A DNA stretch of 21,824 nt from Octopus sinensis (Eukaryota). This document shows, piece after piece, positions 15,281 through 21,200 of the stretch. Position 1 is the first letter of the stretch, and each line of letters begins with the position of its first letter. Position numbers: made by a program. The stretch lies in the NCBI RefSeq assembly GCF_006345805.1, contig NW_021823583.1, forward strand, positions 1 through 21,824, given 5' to 3'.

Positions 15281-18200
15281 TATATATATATATATATATA
15301 TACATATAATTTCAACAATTGAGGGTAAAATTAATTAATTAATTAATCAATTTCACCAAGTATTCAGTATGCAAAGGGACCATTTAAGGCAAATTCAAAT
15401 TATTACATTATATAAAAGGGCTTAGTAAAATAAATTACTTTGCCGCATACTGAACTCGTTAGAAATAGCAGCTAAAAAAAAAAAAAACTATTTCTAACAC
15501 TTAAAGAAAACCTCTCTCATATAGTGCTTGTCAATTCAACCCAAGAAAGTATGAGGGTAGGACATTAAAAAATCAAATGCAAAGGTTATTTGAGTACGTA
15601 CGTTTCAAGATTAGCCAAATTCGACCCTTCTCTCATCAGCTCAGAATGCCCTTGTTTGAGTTTGAAAACACTGAAAATGGGAGCATACCCTTTCGGCTTG
15701 TTATCGCTTCTGAAGATCTGCTCCCAACTAACAGTGCTAGCTAACTCAAATATGCAAGAGAAAGATTTCTGTTCTCCCCTTTCCACCAGCGTGGGTTAAA
15801 ATCAGCAAACACTACGCTTTTTTTCGGTAAAATCCAGACAATTAAGTAGAGAGAGATGAATTATAATTTCAACAATTGAGGGTAAAATAATTAATTAATT
15901 AATCAATTTCACCAAGTATTCAGTATGCAAAGGACCATTTAAGGCAAATTCAAATTATACATTATATAAAAGGGCTTAGTAAAATAAATTACTTTGCCGC
16001 ATACTGAACTCGTTAGAAATAGCAGCTAAAAAAAAAAAAAACTATTTCTAACACTTAAAGAAAACCTCTCTCATATAGTGCTTGCTCAATTCAACCAAGA
16101 AAGTATGAGGGTGAGAGGTAAGACATTAAAAAATCAATGCAAAGGTTATTTGAGTACGTACGTTTCAAGATTAGCCAAATTCGACACTTCTCTCATCAGC
16201 TCAGAATGCCCTGTTTGAGTTTGAAAAAACTGAAAATGGGAGCAACCCTTTCGGCTTTTATCGCTTCTGAAGATGCTCCCAACTAACAGTGCTAGCTAAC
16301 TCAAATATGCAAGAGAAAGATTTCTGTTCTCCCCTTTCCACCAGCGTGGGTTAAAATCAGCAAACACTACGCTTTTTTTCGGTAAAATCCAAGACAATTA
16401 AGTAGAGAGAGATGAATTATAATTTCAACAATTGAGGGTAAAATTAATTAATTAATTAATCAATTTCACCAAGTATTCAGTATGCAAAGGGACCATTTAA
16501 GGCAAATTCAAATTATTACATTATATAAAAGGGCTTAGTAAAATAAATTACTTTGCCGCATACTGAACTCGTTAGAAATAGCAGCTAAAAAAAAAACTAT
16601 TTCTAACACTTAAAGAAAACCTCTCTCATATAGTGCTTGCTCAATTCAACCCAAGAAAGTATGAGGGTAGAGACATTAAAAAATCAAATGCAAAGGTTAT
16701 TTGAGTACGTACGTTTCAAGATTAGCCAAATTCGACCCTTCTCTCATCAGCTCAGAATGCCCTTGTTTGAGTTTGAAAACACTGAAAATGGGAGCATACC
16801 CTTTCGGCTTGTTATCGCTTCTGAAGATCTGCTCCCAACTAACAGTGCTAGCTAACTCAAATATGCAAGAGAAAGATTTCTGTTCTCCCCTTCCACCAGC
16901 GTGGGTTAAAATCAGCAACACTACGCTTTTTTTCGGTAAAATCCAAGACAATTAAGTAGAGAGAGATGAATTATAATTTCAACAATTGAGGGTAAAATTA
17001 ATTAATTAATTAATCAATTTCACCAAGTATTCAGTATGTAAAGGGACCATTTAAGGCAAATTCAAATTATTACATTATATAAAAGGGCTTAGTAAAATAA
17101 ATTTCTTTGCCGCATACTGAACTCGTTAGAAATAGCGCTAAAAAAAACTATTTTTTTAGCTGCTATTTCTAACGAGTCAGTATGCGGCAAAGTAATTTAT
17201 TTTACTAAGCCTTTTATATAATGTAATAATTTGAATTTGCCTTAAATGGTCCCTTTGCATACTGAATACTTGGTGAAATTGATTAATTAATTAATTAATT
17301 TTACCCTCAATTGTTGAAATTATAATTCATCTCTCTCTACTTAATTGTCTTGGATTTTACCGAAAAAAAGCGTAGTGTTTGCTGATTTTAACCACGCTGG
17401 TGGAAAGGGGAGACAGAAATCTTTCTCTTGCATATTTGAGTTAGCTAGCACTGTTAGTTGGGAGCAGATCTTCAGAAGCGATAACAAGCCGAAAGGGTAT
17501 GCTCCCATTTTCAGTGTTTTCAAACTCAAACAAGGGCATTCTGAGCTGATGAGAGAAGGGTCGAATTTGGCTAATCTTGAAACGTAGTACTCAAATAACC
17601 TTTGCATTTGATTTTTTAATGTCTCTACCCTCATACTTTCTTGGGTTGAATTGAGCAAGCACTATATGAGAGAGGTTTTCTTAAGTGTTAGAAATAGTTT
17701 TTTTTAGCTGCTATTTCTAACGAGTTCAGTATGCGGCAAAGTAATTTATTTTACTAAGCCCTTTTATATAATGTAATAATTTGAATTTGCCTTAATGGTC
17801 CCTTTGCATACTGAATACTTGGTGAAATTGATTAATTAATTAATTAATTTTACCCTCAATTGTTGAAATTATAATTCATCTCTCTCTACTTATTGTCTTG
17901 GATTTTACCGAAAAAAAGCGTAGTGTTTGCTGATTTTAACCCACGCTGGTGAAAGGGAGAACAGAAATCTTTCTCTTGCATATTTGAGTTAGCTAGCACT
18001 GTTAGTTGGAGCAGATCTTCAGAAGCGATAACAAGCCGAAGGGTATGCTCCCATTTTCAGTGTTTTCAAACTCAAACAAGGGCATTCTGAGCTGATGAGA
18101 GAAGGGTCGAATTTGGCTAATCTTGAAACGTACGTACTCAAATAACCTTTGCATTTGATTTTTAATGTCTCTACCCTCATACTTTCTTGGGTTGAATTGA

Positions 18201-21200
18201 GCAAGCACTATATGAGAGAGGTTTTCTTTAAGTGTTAGAAATAGTTTTTTTTAGCTGCTATTTCTAACGAGTTCAGTATGCGGCAAAGTAATTTATTTTA
18301 CTAAGCCCTTTTATATAATGTAATAATTTGAATTTGCCTTAAATGGTCCCTTTGCATACTGAATACTTGGTGAAATTGATTAATTAATTAATTAATTTTA
18401 CCCTCAATTGTTGAAATTATAATTCATCTCTCTCTACTTAATTGTCTTGGATTTTACCGAAAAAAAGGCGTAGTGTTTGCTGATTTTACCCACGCTGGTG
18501 GAAAGGGGAGAACAGAAATCTTTCTCTTGCATATTTGAGTTAGCTAGCACTGTTAGTTGGGAGCAGATCTTCAGAAGCGATAACAAGCCGAAAGGGTATG
18601 CTCCCATTTTCATGTTTTCAAACTCAAACAAGGGCATTCTGAGCTGATGAGAGAAGGGTCGAATTTGGCTAATCTTGAACGTACGTACTCAAATAACCTT
18701 TGCATTTGATTTTTTAATGTCTCTACCCTCATACTTTCTTGGGTTGAATTGAGAAGCACTATATGAGAGAGGTTTTCTTTAAGTGTTAGAATAGTTTTTT
18801 TTAGCTGCTATTTCTAACGAGTTCAGTATGCGGCAAAGTAATTTATTTTACTAGCCCTTTTATTAATGTAATAATTTGAATTTGCCTAAATGGTCCCTTT
18901 GCATACTGAATACTTGGTGAAATTGATTATTAAATTAATTAATTTTACCCTCAATTGTTGAATTATAATTCATCTCTCTCTACTTATTGTCTTGGATTTT
19001 ACCGAAAAAAAGCGTAGTGTTTGCTGATTTTAACCCACGCTGGTGGAAAGGGGAGAACAGAAATCTTTCTCTTGCATATTTGAGTTAGCTAGCACTGTTA
19101 GTTGGGAGCAGATCTTCAGAAGCGATAACAAGCCGAAAGGGTATGCTCCCATTTTCAGTGTTTTCAAACTCAAACAAGGGCATTCTGAGCTGATGAGAGA
19201 AGGGTCGAATTTGGCTAATCTTGAAACGTACGTACTCAAATAACCTTTGCATTTGATTTTTTAATGTCTCTACCCTCATACTTTCTTGGGTTGAATTGAG
19301 CAAGCACTATATGAGAGAGGTTTTCTTTAAGTGTTAGAAATAGTTTTTTTTAGCTGCTATTTCTAACGAGTTCAGTATGCGGCAAAGTAATTTATTTTAC
19401 TAAGCCCTTTTATATAATATATATACATATATATATACATGTATACATACATATATGTACCTGTTTTAGAACACAAAGAAACAAATGGTATTTGTACGTT
19501 GCCAAAAATTTTAATTGACTATATAGTTAATTTAATTTAATCTAATTTAATTAACCCAACTTAAATCAAATAAATTGCTAATACTTCCTAATTCTATTAT
19601 AAGTTTAATAAGTAATGCTACTCCCTTAATAATAATATAAGGAATTTTCACTATGATTTTCACTATATTTTGAATAAAAAAATACTCTCACACCTTTTAC
19701 TATAGAAATTAATTGACCTCTAGGTATAGACCTAAAGTCTGTCTTAAAATGTATAAATATTTGTATAAATAGTAACAATAATAAATAAATAAATAACCTC
19801 CTGTTCTAGTATTGCACTTAAATCTCTTAATGTATTTTCCTCTTTGACCCCTTTGATACTTTTTTTGTTCTCTTTATATTCTTTTACCTGCTTTAAACTC
19901 TGTAGGAGTGGTAGTTAACAGTTGTATGATGGTCAAAAGTAATGTTCTCTTCTATAAATCTCAGATTCCTGCAACTCTGACCTAAATTTTCTGTCACCAC
20001 ACAAATAAACTAATCTTTGTAAGTTGTGTACTTACACCCCTCCCTCCCTTTTGTCCCATAATGCCCTTATTTGGTTGGTTTCTGCTTCACTGACTCCTTT
20101 TAGCCAATATAGTCAATCTCTTCTTCCAACATAGTAGTTTTGTGAAATGAACAGAAGTGTGATCAGTATCTTCTCATATATCAGGAAATTACATCTACAT
20201 TATTATGGATAAATTCATCGTCTCTGAGTATGAAATATCTCCTCATATCTCCGGAAAGTACACCTGCATTATTATGGATAGATTTACCTTTTCTGTGAAG
20301 CTAACAAACTTTTTTTAAAACCTTTTATAAAACTGTGCATCATTAGAGAACTTTTGAAGTCTGCTTACAATCTAACTTTGCTTTTTATAGAACTCTCTTC
20401 GATACTTCATGAGTGTAGCCTCACCCCCTAGGATGTTTGGAAAACTCATATGTGTTTTGGCTGATGAATACGGGACACTTATATTTGCAGTTTTTAATAA
20501 AGCTGTTCTTCGTATGAAACAATTGTCCTGAACAACTAATCCATTCTTGTTGCTTTTTTCTTGTTTATAATCACCCCACATTATTTTATGGTTAATACCA
20601 TATAGATTTCTGGTGCATCTAAGTTAAGTACCGCATTCATGTAATTCATTGGAACTCACTTGAATCTTAATTGTTTTTTACTGAAAATATATATACATAT
20701 ATATATAATATATATATATATATTATTATATATATATATATATATAATATATATATATATACAATATATATAGCATGTGTGATGGATGTATGTACGTATG
20801 TATGTATGCATGTATATATGGATAGATGGATGGATGGATGGATGAGTGGATGGATGCCTAAATATACACAGATATATATACTGTTGACGTGATAAGACTA
20901 TAAACTTCCAGGAAGGCGTAAAATAATTCCTTTTTGTAAGAATGCATTTCGAAGCATATAACGCTATAAATAACAGTATGGAAATTTGATTTCAAAGACT
21001 GTCCTCTTTACGCCGAAATGGATTATATAAAAAAATCAATACAAGCATTCTGTTATTTATAGCATTATGTGCTTCGAGATCCAATTGAATTTGGATGTAG
21101 GGGATTCATAGGAAACAGTGCGATTTCAATGGTTGCCGTCGCTAGCTCTAACTCACCGCAAAACAAATGCCATCCTGTGTGATATCCAGGCTAGAGTGGA

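What the first reader, a model, noticed from the sequence alone, without database searches (positions are those of the whole stretch)
15305..19418. 4.1-kb head-to-head array of 550-bp non-coding units, each with a hammerhead ribozyme: candidate cephalopod retrozyme / circular-RNA system
Seen: about 3.3 units on one strand and about 4.1 on the other, with seven HHR copies (CUGAUGA, stem II, GAAAC-GUAC-GUA, stem I), no credible ORF, and (TA)n on both sides. Known: PLE pseudo-LTRs and metazoan non-LTR retrozymes carry type I HHRs with a palindromic minimal helix III that is proposed to work as a dimer, and tandem HHR units self-cleave to monomers that can circularise. Inference: this is a young non-autonomous element whose multimeric cDNA came from rolling-circle or multimer reverse transcription by a PLE RT. 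I cannot tell whether this family has been described.
Basis: partly seen in the sequence, partly recalled or inferred. Interest (0 to 1): 0.9.

Follow-up and report, generated by a model that had tools for sequence, protein, structure and literature searches.

The report
Head-to-head hammerhead repeat array (retrozyme)
A 4.1-kb block of nearly identical 554-bp non-coding repeats, each carrying a hammerhead-ribozyme-like motif and arranged as two arms pointing away from each other inside a TA microsatellite, looks like a new family of the known "retrozyme" mobile elements, and its layout hints at how such elements are pasted into the genome.

Summary
Window 15305-19417 is an inverted pair of tandem arrays of a 554-bp, 35% GC, non-coding unit: 3.3 units with the ribozyme sense on the minus strand and 4.1 on the plus strand. 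The arms meet at a palindrome at 17137-17160, and (TA)n lies on both sides. Copies are 96.5-100% identical to their consensus. Each of the seven unit junctions carries a type I hammerhead-like motif: CUGAUGA, helix II, GAAA, a palindromic ACGUACGU helix III, and a GUA cut site (for example after 18136). Six of seven pass a structural descriptor that hits 2 of 5000 shuffled units. No Rfam hammerhead model reports the motif even at E<=10, and pair 10.1-11.1 is G-U rather than G-C, so activity is unproven. The unit meets the published sequence criteria for metazoan non-LTR retrozymes. Both arms have their 5' ends at the centre and their 3' ends at TA-like microhomologies next to (TA)n. That is the geometry expected if both nicked target strands primed reverse transcription, as published for Penelope-like elements (PLEs). 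A second, unrelated 358-bp array (6326-7566) has the same layout. "Cephalopod" is only weakly supported. Verdict: a new member of a known kind, with a mechanistically informative architecture.

The parts
15305..17147 (-). Left arm. About 3.3 units of the 554-bp repeat with the hammerhead sense on the minus strand: a partial unit next to the centre (17147-16706), full units 16705-16155 and 16154-15595, and an outer partial unit 15594-15305. The 5' end is at the centre; the 3' end is at the left (TA)n.
   Evidence: unit boundaries, alignment, 96.5-98.9% identity to the consensus; inverted pairs with the right arm, 86-100% complementary.
17148..19417 (+). Right arm. About 4.1 units with the hammerhead sense on the plus strand: a partial unit 17148-17589, full units 17590-18136, 18137-18687 and 18688-19234, and an outer partial unit 19235-19417. 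The 5' end is at the centre; the 3' end is at the right (TA)n.
   Evidence: 98.4-100% identity to the consensus.
17137..17160 (.). Junction of the two arms. A 24-nt near-perfect palindrome (GCT-A8-CTA-T7-AGC) lying in the loop of the unit's own 11-bp hairpin. The left arm runs 6 nt past its A-run; the right arm starts inside its T-run. Up to 3 nt of T/A microhomology is shared.
   Evidence: sequence and coordinates; alignment of the two central partial units.
18077..18151 (+). Best-preserved hammerhead-like motif (type I). Helix I is 18088-18091/18137-18140 plus a distal part 18077-18082/18146-18151. CUGAUGA is at 18092-18098. Helix II is 18099-18102/18121-18124 plus a distal hairpin 18105-18118. 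GAAA is at 18125-18128. Helix III (ACGUACGU) is at 18128-18135. The predicted cut is after A18136.
   Evidence: pair list; helices I and II also appear in the unconstrained MFE fold; descriptor; helix III +1.4 kcal/mol in cis, -12.5 kcal/mol as a trans duplex. Against: no Rfam hit.
19190..19234 (+). Hammerhead-like motif, from the core box to the cut site; identical to the consensus.
18644..18687 (+). Hammerhead-like motif with a one-base deletion in the GAAA box (reads GAA). It fails the descriptor.
17546..17589 (+). Hammerhead-like motif with a one-base deletion in helix III, so the palindrome is broken. It still passes the 2-bp descriptor.
16706..16750 (-). Hammerhead-like motif, consensus sequence.
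16155..16199 (-). Hammerhead-like motif with a G-to-T change in the distal part of helix II and a one-base deletion in distal helix I.
15595..15639 (-). Hammerhead-like motif, consensus sequence.
18234..18268 (+). Representative copy of the unit's internal hairpin: an 11-bp perfect stem (18234-18244/18258-18268) with a 13-nt loop that starts with a U-run. The U-run is 8 nt in all four right-arm copies and 8, 10, 14 and 14 nt in the left arm, counting outward from the centre.
   Evidence: (part of the circular MFE fold).
14977..15308 (.). Left flanking TA-rich microsatellite (the putative target). The left arm ends in a TA-like stretch of the unit (sense ...GAAAUUAUA) that merges into it.
19411..19456 (.). 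Right flanking (TA)n (the putative target). The right arm ends in the unit's UAUAUAAU stretch, which merges into it.

Best explanation
The block is one insertion of a non-autonomous, non-coding retroelement of the metazoan non-LTR retrozyme kind.

Its 554-nt unit carries one type I hammerhead-like motif. Helix III of that motif is only 2 bp in cis, but it is an 8-nt palindrome, so two motifs in a multimeric transcript could pair to form a stable helix III and cut after GUA. The resulting 554-nt monomers could then be ligated into highly self-paired circles by host enzymes. This step is inferred from the family and was not tested here.

I infer integration by target-primed reverse transcription from both nicked strands of a (TA)n target. 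Each 3'-OH annealed to a TA-like stretch inside the RNA, which was either a multimer or a circle copied round and round. Each cDNA ran for 3 to 4 unit lengths toward the template's 5' side. The two cDNA ends were joined at a T/A microhomology inside the unit's hairpin. The product is two arms with their 5' ends at the centre and their 3' ends at the flanks.

The most likely enzyme is a Penelope-like element RT/GIY-YIG endonuclease encoded elsewhere in the genome.

Shown here: the repeat anatomy, the motif, the lack of coding capacity, the junctions and the geometry. Inferred: cleavage, circularisation, the template form and the enzyme.
For: 1. Anatomy. There are seven units or part-units per the alignment, 96.5-100% identical to a 554-nt consensus, 35% GC, and no ORF longer than 76 aa in the tandem consensus. 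No ORF overlapping the array has a Pfam hit.

2. Hammerhead. Both conserved boxes are exact, and helices I, II and III, A15.1-U16.1 and H17=A are all in type I order. Helices I and II also appear in the unconstrained MFE fold. Six of 7 copies pass a descriptor that hits 2 of 5000 shuffled units and 4 times in 400 window shuffles. Helix III is +1.4 kcal/mol in cis and -12.5 kcal/mol as a trans duplex. This matches the dimer-dependent type I motifs described in PMC4209133 (passages).

3. Retrozyme criteria from PMC7229834 (sections 13, 14 and 17 read): tandem repeats with a type I hammerhead, GC below 50%, no LTRs, and a self-paired predicted circle. The circular MFE has z = -4.9 and -4.6 against 100 shuffles each. 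The unit length lies inside the 51-972 bp range of the 2026 preprint (Results read).

4. Geometry. The hammerhead sense is on the minus strand on the left and the plus strand on the right, so both 3' ends face the flanks. That is what extension from a top-strand and a bottom-strand nick would give.

5. Published PLE behaviour. [quoted passage not shown] 6. Outer ends. Both fall in TA-like stretches of the unit next to (TA)n. Only 3.6% of unit positions qualify under my post hoc criterion.

7. The arms are not mirror copies. No private variant is shared in mirror position. The hairpin U-run is 8, 8, 8, 8 on the right against 8, 10, 14, 14 on the left.

8. Replication within the window. A second, unrelated 358-bp array (6326-7566) has the same tandem-plus-inverted layout between (TA)n tracts, and both of its outer ends read CTATTAT.

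9. A solitary type I hammerhead-like motif lies 1 kb away. Rfam Hammerhead_1 is its best hit, at 17.2 bits, below the gathering score of 34.
Against: - Rfam release 15 gives no hammerhead match for the array motif at the gathering score or at E<=10 on 4.3 kb, 131 nt or 63 nt. The same search did pick up the solitary motif at 20455-20533.
- Pair 10.1-11.1 is G-U, whereas PMC4209133 calls G10.1-C11.1 highly conserved.
- There is no covariation evidence, because the copies are nearly identical. Hammerhead cells change no less than the rest (4/525 against 66/3588, p=0.10).
- Two of the 7 motifs carry disabling one-base deletions. Most differences among copies are private one-base deletions (39 deletion, 10 substitution and 21 insertion cells; 25 of 36 deletion columns lie in homopolymers). 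That looks like long-read consensus noise, so fine details, the junction included, may be imprecise.
- No PLE RT or GIY-YIG ORF is in the window. The only RT fragment is LINE-like.
- No target-site duplication can be read in (TA)n.
- Both cDNAs ending in the same hairpin needs an extra assumption (an RT pause site).
- The microhomology statistic was defined after seeing the data.
- In published tests, 8 of 9 Xenopus retrozyme dimers did not cleave in vitro (preprint passage).
Confidence: 0.6

Rival explanations
1. This is a hammerhead-bearing satellite shaped at the DNA level. A direct tandem array grew by unequal crossing-over, and part of it was then inverted by a replication template switch or fold-back at the unit's own hairpin or A/T-run. 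No reverse transcription from two strands is needed.
For: The junction lies exactly in an 11-bp hairpin and forms a 24-nt palindrome with a 3-4 nt centre, which is typical of fold-back or template-switch junctions. A strand ending ...A8-CTA-TTT could snap back on its own A-run and reproduce the observed sequence (reading). The near-identity of copies fits recent array homogenisation.
Against: A fold-back copy should mirror its template. Here the arms differ in length (3.3 against 4.1 units), in outer phase, and in U-run length (8, 8, 8, 8 against 8, 10, 14, 14), and they share no private variants in mirror position. Both outer ends sit at TA-like microhomologies next to (TA)n, which a purely internal rearrangement does not explain. 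A second, unrelated array shows the same layout.
Confidence: 0.15
2. It is the same kind of element but is mobilised by a LINE (apurinic-type endonuclease and RT) through twin priming, not by a Penelope-like element.
For: Twin priming by LINE-1, as I recall it from the literature (not looked up here), also yields inverted segments with their 5' ends at the centre. A CR1-like LINE RT fragment lies in the window at 5215-6060, itself between (TA)n tracts. PMC7229834 leaves 'LINEs or PLEs' open.
Against: Hammerheads are a hallmark of PLE terminal repeats, not of LINEs (PMC4209133). Retrozymes co-occur with PLEs in 32 of 35 genomes and share sequence with PLE terminal repeats in Xenopus (preprint Results). 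Tandem-plus-inverted insertions in microsatellites are the published PLE signature. The variable internal 3' ends fit PLE internal initiation better than a LINE-recognised 3' tail.
Confidence: 0.1
3. The inverted junction is an assembly artefact. A chimeric or fold-back long read, or a mis-join inside a repeat, created it, and the real locus is a one-orientation array.
For: The error profile, private one-base deletions enriched in homopolymers, suggests noisy long-read consensus in this repeat. Palindromic chimeras are a known long-read artefact (my general knowledge).
Against: A fold-back read mirrors its flank too. Here the two arms have different lengths and phases and different unique flanks. 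The same architecture recurs in an unrelated array 8 kb away. It matches a layout published for real PLE insertions.
Confidence: 0.08
4. The hammerhead-like motif is a chance or decayed resemblance with no catalytic role, and the block is an ordinary non-coding satellite.
For: No Rfam hammerhead hit. A G-U pair at 10.1-11.1. No covariation is available. Many predicted retrozyme dimers fail to cleave in vitro.
Against: A full descriptor match is rare by chance (2 of 5000 shuffled units). Features not in the descriptor are also present: the perfect 8-nt palindrome at helix III, the extended helix I, and one motif per unit in a tandem repeat.
Confidence: 0.07

Closest known systems
Metazoan non-LTR retrozymes (Cervera & de la Pena 2020, PMC7229834; for example those of the coral Acropora millepora, the mussel Mytilus galloprovincialis and the axolotl)
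   Same: Both are tandem, non-coding, low-GC repeats with one type I hammerhead per unit, no LTRs, a predicted highly self-paired monomer circle, and a weak palindromic helix III implying dimer-dependent cleavage, as in the amphibian families.
   Different: The unit is 554 bp against the ~170-400 nt (150-450 bp) given in that paper, though inside the 51-972 bp range of the 2026 preprint. The array is head-to-head rather than one-directional. Pair 10.1-11.1 is G-U. No expression or cleavage data exist. No sequence comparison with described families was possible.
Penelope-like element insertions and their terminal-repeat minimal hammerheads (PMC4209133; PMC8557442; PMC11167929)
   Same: Both show partial tandems with an inverted 5'-truncated copy at the 5' end, insertion into microsatellites including (TA)n, hammerheads with a small palindromic helix III and a long helix II, and variable internal initiation of reverse transcription.
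   Different: There is no RT/GIY-YIG ORF, so this element is non-autonomous. The whole insertion is made of 554-bp units rather than ORF plus terminal repeats. The 30-40 bp 'tail' was not identified.
Newt and salamander satellite 2 and Schistosoma hammerhead repeats (classical type I hammerhead satellites, as cited in PMC7229834 and PMC4209133)
   Same: Both are tandem genomic repeats transcribed, in those species, into multimers that self-cleave through type I hammerheads acting as dimers.
   Different: The host is different and the sequence unrelated. The unit is longer. The inverted two-arm organisation at a single small locus differs from large satellite blocks.
LINE-1 twin-priming inversions
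   Same: Both give two segments of one template in opposite orientation with their 5' ends meeting at an internal microhomology junction and their 3' ends at the target.
   Different: Here the template is a multimeric or circular non-coding ribozyme RNA, each arm spans several unit lengths, and the likely enzyme is a PLE rather than a LINE.

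Membership tests
Hammerhead ribozyme, type I (Rfam RF00163) | Conserved core boxes CUGANGA and GAAA | tested here: met
   Exact in 6 of 7 copies; the copy at 18644 reads GAA.
Hammerhead ribozyme, type I (Rfam RF00163) | Three helices around the core in type I order, with A15.1-U16.1 and a non-G residue at the cut site | tested here: met
   Pair list. Helices I and II are present in the unconstrained MFE fold. The cut triplet is GUA. 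Descriptor hits: 6 of 7 copies, against 2 of 5000 shuffled units.
Hammerhead ribozyme, type I (Rfam RF00163) | G10.1-C11.1 closing pair of helix II | tested here: not met
   G18099 pairs with U18124, a wobble. PMC4209133 describes the G-C pair as highly conserved.
Hammerhead ribozyme, type I (Rfam RF00163) | Score at or above the Rfam gathering threshold | tested here: not met
   No hammerhead family is listed at the gathering score or at E<=10 on 4301, 131 or 63 nt.
Hammerhead ribozyme, type I (Rfam RF00163) | Compensatory changes supporting the helices | tested here: inconclusive
   Copies are 96.5-100% identical. Change rates are 4/525 in the hammerhead and 66/3588 elsewhere, p=0.10. No relatives from elsewhere could be fetched.
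Hammerhead ribozyme, type I (Rfam RF00163) | Site-specific self-cleavage | not testable with these tools
   This needs in vitro transcription of monomer and dimer constructs.
Metazoan non-LTR retrozyme (PMC7229834) | Short tandem repeats, each with a type I hammerhead | tested here: met
   554-bp units, one motif each. This is longer than the 150-450 bp in that paper but within the 51-972 bp of the 2026 preprint.
Metazoan non-LTR retrozyme (PMC7229834) | Non-coding, with no LTR, PBS or PPT, and GC below 50% | tested here: met
   The longest ORF is 76 aa and there are no Pfam hits. GC is 35%. No terminal direct repeats other than the units themselves. PBS and PPT were not searched for specifically.
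Metazoan non-LTR retrozyme (PMC7229834) | Monomer predicted to fold into a stable, highly self-paired circle | tested here: met
   Circular MFE is -150 kcal/mol, with z = -4.9 and -4.6 against 100 shuffles each and 57-63% of bases paired.
Metazoan non-LTR retrozyme (PMC7229834) | Expressed as linear and circular monomer RNA | not testable with these tools
   No transcriptome was available.
Metazoan non-LTR retrozyme (PMC7229834) | Co-existence with autonomous PLEs in the same genome | not testable with these tools
   Only this window is held, and it has no PLE ORF. A solitary PLE-style hammerhead-like motif lies at 20455-20533.
PLE-type insertion architecture (PMC8557442) | Partial tandem with an inverted 5'-truncated copy adjacent to the 5' end | tested here: met
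   The two arms have their 5' ends at 17137-17160.
PLE-type insertion architecture (PMC8557442) | Insertion into a microsatellite such as (TA)n | tested here: met
   (TA)n at 14977-15308 and 19411-19456. Such tracts cover 6.5% of the window.
PLE-type insertion architecture (PMC8557442) | 30-40 bp 'tail' extension at one end | not tested
   It cannot be recognised without other copies of the family.
Autonomous Penelope-like element | ORF with an RT and a GIY-YIG endonuclease | tested here: not met
   Of 111 ORFs of 60 aa or more, only a LINE-like RVT_1 fragment at 5215-6060 scores above its cutoff. The array is therefore at most a non-autonomous dependant.

The most novel reading that the evidence does not exclude
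The locus is a fossil of how retrozymes integrate. A PLE enzyme nicked both strands of a (TA)n tract. Each 3' end primed on a TA-like stretch of a circular or multimeric ribozyme RNA. Two multi-unit cDNAs were made and joined head-to-head. The unrelated 358-bp array 8 kb away has the same layout but only a degenerate hammerhead. That would mean the same machinery seeds small tandem-plus-inverted satellites from several non-coding RNAs, with or without a working ribozyme. Together these would be the first structural evidence for the retrozyme integration step, in a lineage (probably a cephalopod) where I found no retrozyme described.
Probability: 0.35. Interest if true: 0.65.

Novelty: new member of a known kind. 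Interest (0 to 1): 0.5.

Why it matters
Retrozymes are abundant sources of small circular RNA in animals, but the step that puts them back into the genome is inferred, not observed. The 2020 paper leaves 'LINEs or PLEs' open. The 2026 preprint argues for PLEs from co-occurrence and sequence relatedness.

A young insertion has readable junctions, so it gives testable predictions:
- two-strand priming
- TA microhomology at both 3' ends
- an internal join at a hairpin

These can be checked genome-wide and in the published in vitro PLE assay. The locus would also add a 554-nt family, with a dimer-gated hammerhead carrying an unusual G-U at 10.1-11.1, from a host group not covered by the retrozyme papers I could search.

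If cleavage fails, the block is an ordinary satellite with a decayed motif.

Tried and rejected
The listed hits (mir-297, snoRNAs, BMV pseudoknot) are far below their thresholds and I take them as chance.
- Rfam on the array-2 motif: nothing relevant.
- My first descriptor script had a loop-length bug and missed the palindromic helix III. It is superseded.
- The dot-bracket energy of a double hammerhead is not computable because the topology is knotted. One search returned a meaningless +100005. I replaced it with a duplex-against-hairpin comparison.
- Host taxon from the RT fragment: 4029 proteins at E<=1e-10, best 50% identity from unnamed records; the named hits are birds, an amphipod and a ctenophore, so this says nothing about taxon.
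- Pfam on 27 short ORFs of the 19457-20686 stretch, looking for PLE remnants: only sub-cutoff noise.
- TRF could not see the array because its longest period is 500.
- Conservation of the hammerhead against the rest of the unit: uninformative.
- Literature. 'retrozyme/hammerhead/cephalopod', 'hammerhead ribozyme'+'octopus' (5 papers hold both terms, 4 listed) and 'hammerhead ribozyme'+'cephalopod' (4 papers hold both terms, 2 listed) gave no paper whose listing describes a cephalopod hammerhead repeat. One search was too loose to count. 'retrozyme'+'inverted' (15 papers, 12 listed) showed no report of head-to-head retrozyme arrays in the listings or in the three papers I searched by passage.
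The only open contig collection holds bacteria and archaea, so I did not use it.
- Supplementary files were not opened. Supplementary file S1 of PMC8557442 and the supplementary figures of PMC7229834 may list related families.

Full report
**1. What is there**

Window 15305-19417 is made of copies of one unit. I anchored on the first bases after the predicted ribozyme cut site. That gives unit starts at 17590, 18137, 18688 and 19235 on the plus strand and at 16705, 16154 and 15594 on the minus strand. The full units are 547, 551 and 547 nt on the plus strand and 551 and 560 nt on the minus strand.

The repeat finder independently reports direct families spaced 545-559 nt and 20 inverted pairs that are 86-100% complementary. 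TRF missed the array because its longest period is 500.

The left arm (15305-17147) holds about 3.3 units. The right arm (17148-19417) holds about 4.1 units.

**2. How alike the copies are**

The nine rows of the alignment are 96.5-100% identical to a 554-nt majority consensus. The differences amount to 39 deletion cells, 10 substitution cells and 21 insertion cells. The insertions are mostly one U-run of variable length and one 6-nt insertion.

Almost all differences are private to one copy. 25 of the 36 deletion columns lie in homopolymer runs, whereas 54% of consensus positions do. This looks like consensus noise from a long-read assembly laid over essentially identical copies. The same kind of one-base differences is visible in the unrelated array at 6326-7566.

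Two consequences follow. The insertion is young or homogenised. And the within-window test 'is the ribozyme core better conserved than the rest' carries no information: 4 changes in 525 cells against 66 in 3588, Fisher p=0.10.

**3. Coding capacity**

In a four-fold tandem of the consensus, the longest stop-to-stop frame is 69 aa (sense) or 76 aa (antisense). I scanned all 111 stop-to-stop ORFs of 60 aa or more in the window against Pfam. One scores above its cutoff, and it lies outside the array: a reverse-transcriptase fragment at 5215-6060 on the minus strand. The unit is non-coding.

**4. The hammerhead-like motif**

Each unit junction carries, in this order:
- a 5' strand of helix I
- CUGAUGA
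- a 26-nt helix II (4 bp, an internal loop, and a 4-bp distal hairpin)
- GAAA
- ACGUACGU
- A at the cut site
- a 3' strand of helix I

Helices I and II appear in the unconstrained minimum-energy fold. Helix I extends to 4 + 6 + 5 bp around an internal loop. Helix III in cis is only A-U and C-G around a GUAC loop (+1.4 kcal/mol). Because the 8-mer is a perfect palindrome, two motifs can form an 8-bp helix in trans (-12.5 kcal/mol). PMC4209133 describes this same feature for most metazoan type I hammerheads: a 1-2 bp helix III with a small palindromic loop, inactive as a monomer and active as a dimer in tandem transcripts (passages).

My descriptor required:
- both boxes exact
- helix II of at least 4 bp
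- helix III of at least 2 bp starting with A15.1-U16.1
- a non-G residue at position 17
- helix I of at least 4 bp

It is met by 6 of the 7 copies. It gave 4 hits in 400 dinucleotide shuffles of the whole window, both strands, and hit 2 of 5000 shuffled units. An earlier version of the script with a loop bug is superseded.

Of the seven copies, four are consensus (18092, 19190, 16750, 15639). One has a G-to-T change in distal helix II (16199). One has lost a base of the palindrome (17546). One reads GAA for GAAA (18644).

**5. Evidence against the hammerhead reading**

Rfam release 15 lists no hammerhead family for the array. I searched:
- the whole window at gathering scores
- 4301 nt at E<=10
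- 131 nt at E<=10
- 63 nt at E<=10

This is not general blindness of the model to long helix II inserts. A solitary motif at 20455-20533 with a 44-nt insert is found as the best hit, Hammerhead_1 at 17.2 bits (gathering 34), E=0.079.

The array motif departs from the model in three ways: the G-U wobble at 10.1-11.1, A rather than C at the cut site, and a short proximal helix I. PMC4209133 calls the G10.1-C11.1 pair highly conserved. The listing abstract of PMC1636495 says GUA occurs in some natural hammerheads.

I conclude that the motif is very probably hammerhead-derived, given how rare a chance match is and given the tandem context. Its activity is open. The 2026 preprint reports that only 1 of 9 Xenopus retrozyme dimers cleaved in vitro (passage), so caution is warranted.

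**6. Fit to the retrozyme definition**

PMC7229834 (sections 13, 14 and 17 read) defines metazoan non-LTR retrozymes as:
- short tandem repeats with type I hammerheads
- lacking LTR, PBS and PPT
- GC below 50%
- expressed as self-paired circles
- co-existing with PLEs

Here GC is 35%. The 551-nt monomers, folded as circles, give -150 kcal/mol, with z = -4.9 and -4.6 against 100 shuffles each; the antisense strands give z = -3.2 and -4.2.

The unit is longer than the 150-450 bp given in 2020. It lies within the 51-972 bp range found across vertebrate families in the 2026 preprint, where 75% of families have at most seven repeat units (Results read). Expression and circularity cannot be tested here.

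**7. Geometry and junctions**

The hammerhead sense runs right-to-left in the left arm and left-to-right in the right arm. Both arms therefore have their 5' ends at the centre and their 3' ends at the flanks.

In target-primed reverse transcription, a bottom-strand nick extended leftwards leaves the RNA-sense 3' end next to the right flank. A top-strand nick extended rightwards leaves it next to the left flank. The observed layout is what priming from both strands predicts.

The right arm stops in the unit's UAUAUAAU stretch and the left arm in ...GAAAUUAUA. Each merges into (TA)n. Only 3.6% of unit positions are preceded by six A/T bases containing TAT or ATA. I chose that criterion after seeing the data. 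(TA)n-like tracts cover 6.5% of the window.

The centre (17137-17160) is a 24-nt palindrome, GCT-A8-CTA-T7-AGC, inside the loop of the unit's perfect 11-bp hairpin. The left arm runs 6 nt beyond its A-run, the right arm begins within its T-run, and up to 3 T/A pairs are shared.

Two same-sense cDNAs can only anneal at self-complementary sequence, so a join at an A-run/T-run in a hairpin is plausible. It does require that both cDNAs stopped in that hairpin.

**8. The arms are not mirror copies**

A fold-back duplication, whether snap-back of one cDNA or a DNA-level template switch, predicts that one arm copies the other. That is not what is seen:
- The arms differ in length and in outer phase.
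- No private variant is shared in mirror position.
- The hairpin U-run is 8, 8, 8, 8 in the right arm and 8, 10, 14, 14 in the left arm, counted from the centre.

Homopolymer lengths are the least reliable feature of a noisy assembly, so I treat this as moderate evidence for two separately made arms.

**9. Link to Penelope-like elements**

The published passages match point for point.
[quoted passage not shown] It prefers AT-rich DNA and starts reverse transcription internally on the RNA (PMC11167929).
- Dual minimal hammerheads 100-700 bp apart on opposite strands were noted in Schistosoma (PMC4209133).

No PLE ORF is in this window, so the enzyme is inferred. A LINE acting by twin priming remains a rival; that mechanism I recall from the literature and did not look up.

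**10. Replication inside the window**

An unrelated 358-bp unit forms 2.7 direct copies at 6326-7290 (97% matches), followed by an inverted partial unit at 7292-7566. Arms 6389-6592 and 7363-7566 are 100% complementary. (TA)n tracts lie on both sides, at 6234-6329 and 7564-7608. Both outer ends read CTATTAT toward the flank.

This array has a hammerhead-like 3' half: GGGG-CAAUA-CCCC, GAAAC, a palindromic ACGCGU, GUC, and a closing helix I. The local fold has z = -4.4. Its 5' box, however, is CUGCAU(U)GA and not CUGANGA, and Rfam reports nothing. Its polarity is therefore tentative.

The shared layout in two unrelated arrays argues against a one-off misassembly and for a common insertion process.

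The stretch 19457-20686, again bounded by (TA)n, carries the solitary hammerhead-like motif. It has no recognisable protein remnants (0 of 27 short ORFs above a Pfam cutoff).

**11. Host**

The RT fragment is LINE-like. Its named relatives are from birds, an amphipod and a ctenophore, so it says nothing about the host.

A hAT/GTF2IRD2-like ORF at 9174-9569 has three longer relatives. The only named one is an Octopus vulgaris protein: 63% identity, 85% coverage, E=1.1e-33.

'Cephalopod' is compatible with this but not shown.

**12. Novelty**

The kind is known. I found no paper in the searchable library that describes a hammerhead repeat in a cephalopod:
- 5 papers hold both terms, 4 listed
- 4 papers hold both terms, 2 listed; in one of these, PMC8557442, passages I read show the cephalopod mentions concern Naiad elements that lack hammerheads; the other I saw only as a listing

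I also found no head-to-head retrozyme array described (15 papers, 12 listed; passages checked in three).

I could not search Repbase, Dfam, the source genome or the supplements, so 'undescribed' is provisional.

I file the finding as a new member of a known kind. Its added value is that the junctions of a young insertion are readable and point to two-strand priming.

**13. Verdict**

- Observation: confirmed.
- Interpretation: partly supported.
- Best explanation: a young retrozyme-type insertion made by two-strand target-primed reverse transcription in (TA)n, probably by a PLE. Confidence 0.6.
- Interest: 0.5.

Noticed in passing
window 6326-7566, with flanks 6234-6329 and 7564-7608: A second, unrelated array: 2.7 direct copies of a 358-bp unit followed by an inverted partial unit (7292-7566), set between (TA)n tracts, with both outer ends reading CTATTAT. 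It carries a hammerhead-like 3' half (helix II, GAAAC, palindromic ACGCGU, GUC) but a non-canonical 5' box, and has no Rfam hit.
   Followed up: partly
window 20455-20533 (+), within 19457-20686: A solitary type I hammerhead-like motif with a palindromic helix III (ACAAUUGU) and a 44-nt helix II insert. It passes my descriptor, and Rfam Hammerhead_1 is its best hit at 17.2 bits (gathering 34, E=0.079 in a 131-nt search). The 1.2-kb stretch around it is bounded by (TA)n on both sides and has no Pfam-recognisable ORF remnants. It may be a truncated PLE end or a solo retrozyme.
   Followed up: partly
window 4824-6060 (-): A LINE-like reverse-transcriptase fragment (Pfam RVT_1, E=1e-13; best relatives 50% identical, the named ones from birds and invertebrates). 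It lies between (TA)n tracts, and an exact 43-bp x2 tandem sits at 4813-4899 near its 3' side.
   Followed up: partly
window 7953-8267 (+) and 9174-9569 (+): ORF fragments resembling a hAT/GTF2IRD2-type transposase. For 9174-9569 the best named relative is an Octopus vulgaris hypothetical protein (63% identity). For 7953-8267 the only match is a sub-cutoff PSP94 hit, probably spurious.
   Followed up: partly
window 13-1526: Several copies of a roughly 210-bp repeat at 79-90% identity (13-233, 908-1116, 1134-1252, 1259-1477, 1318-1526). My descriptor finds no hammerhead there.
   Followed up: no
window 12595-12712 and 12857-12974; 3467-3621 and 8171-8326: Two inverted repeat pairs: 118 nt at 90% identity, 145 bp apart, which looks MITE-like; and 155 nt at 78% identity, 4.5 kb apart, probably two copies of a dispersed short element.
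   Followed up: no
whole window: TA-rich microsatellites are very frequent: 46 tracts covering 6.5% of the window. They bound most recognisable repeats here, which suggests they are general insertion hot spots in this genome.
   Followed up: partly
window 15471-19354 (hairpin loops of the units): The U-run in the unit's hairpin loop is 8 nt in all four right-arm copies but 8, 10, 14 and 14 nt in the left arm, counted from the centre outward. This gradient is unexplained. Possible causes are polymerase slippage, different templates or assembly noise.
   Followed up: partly
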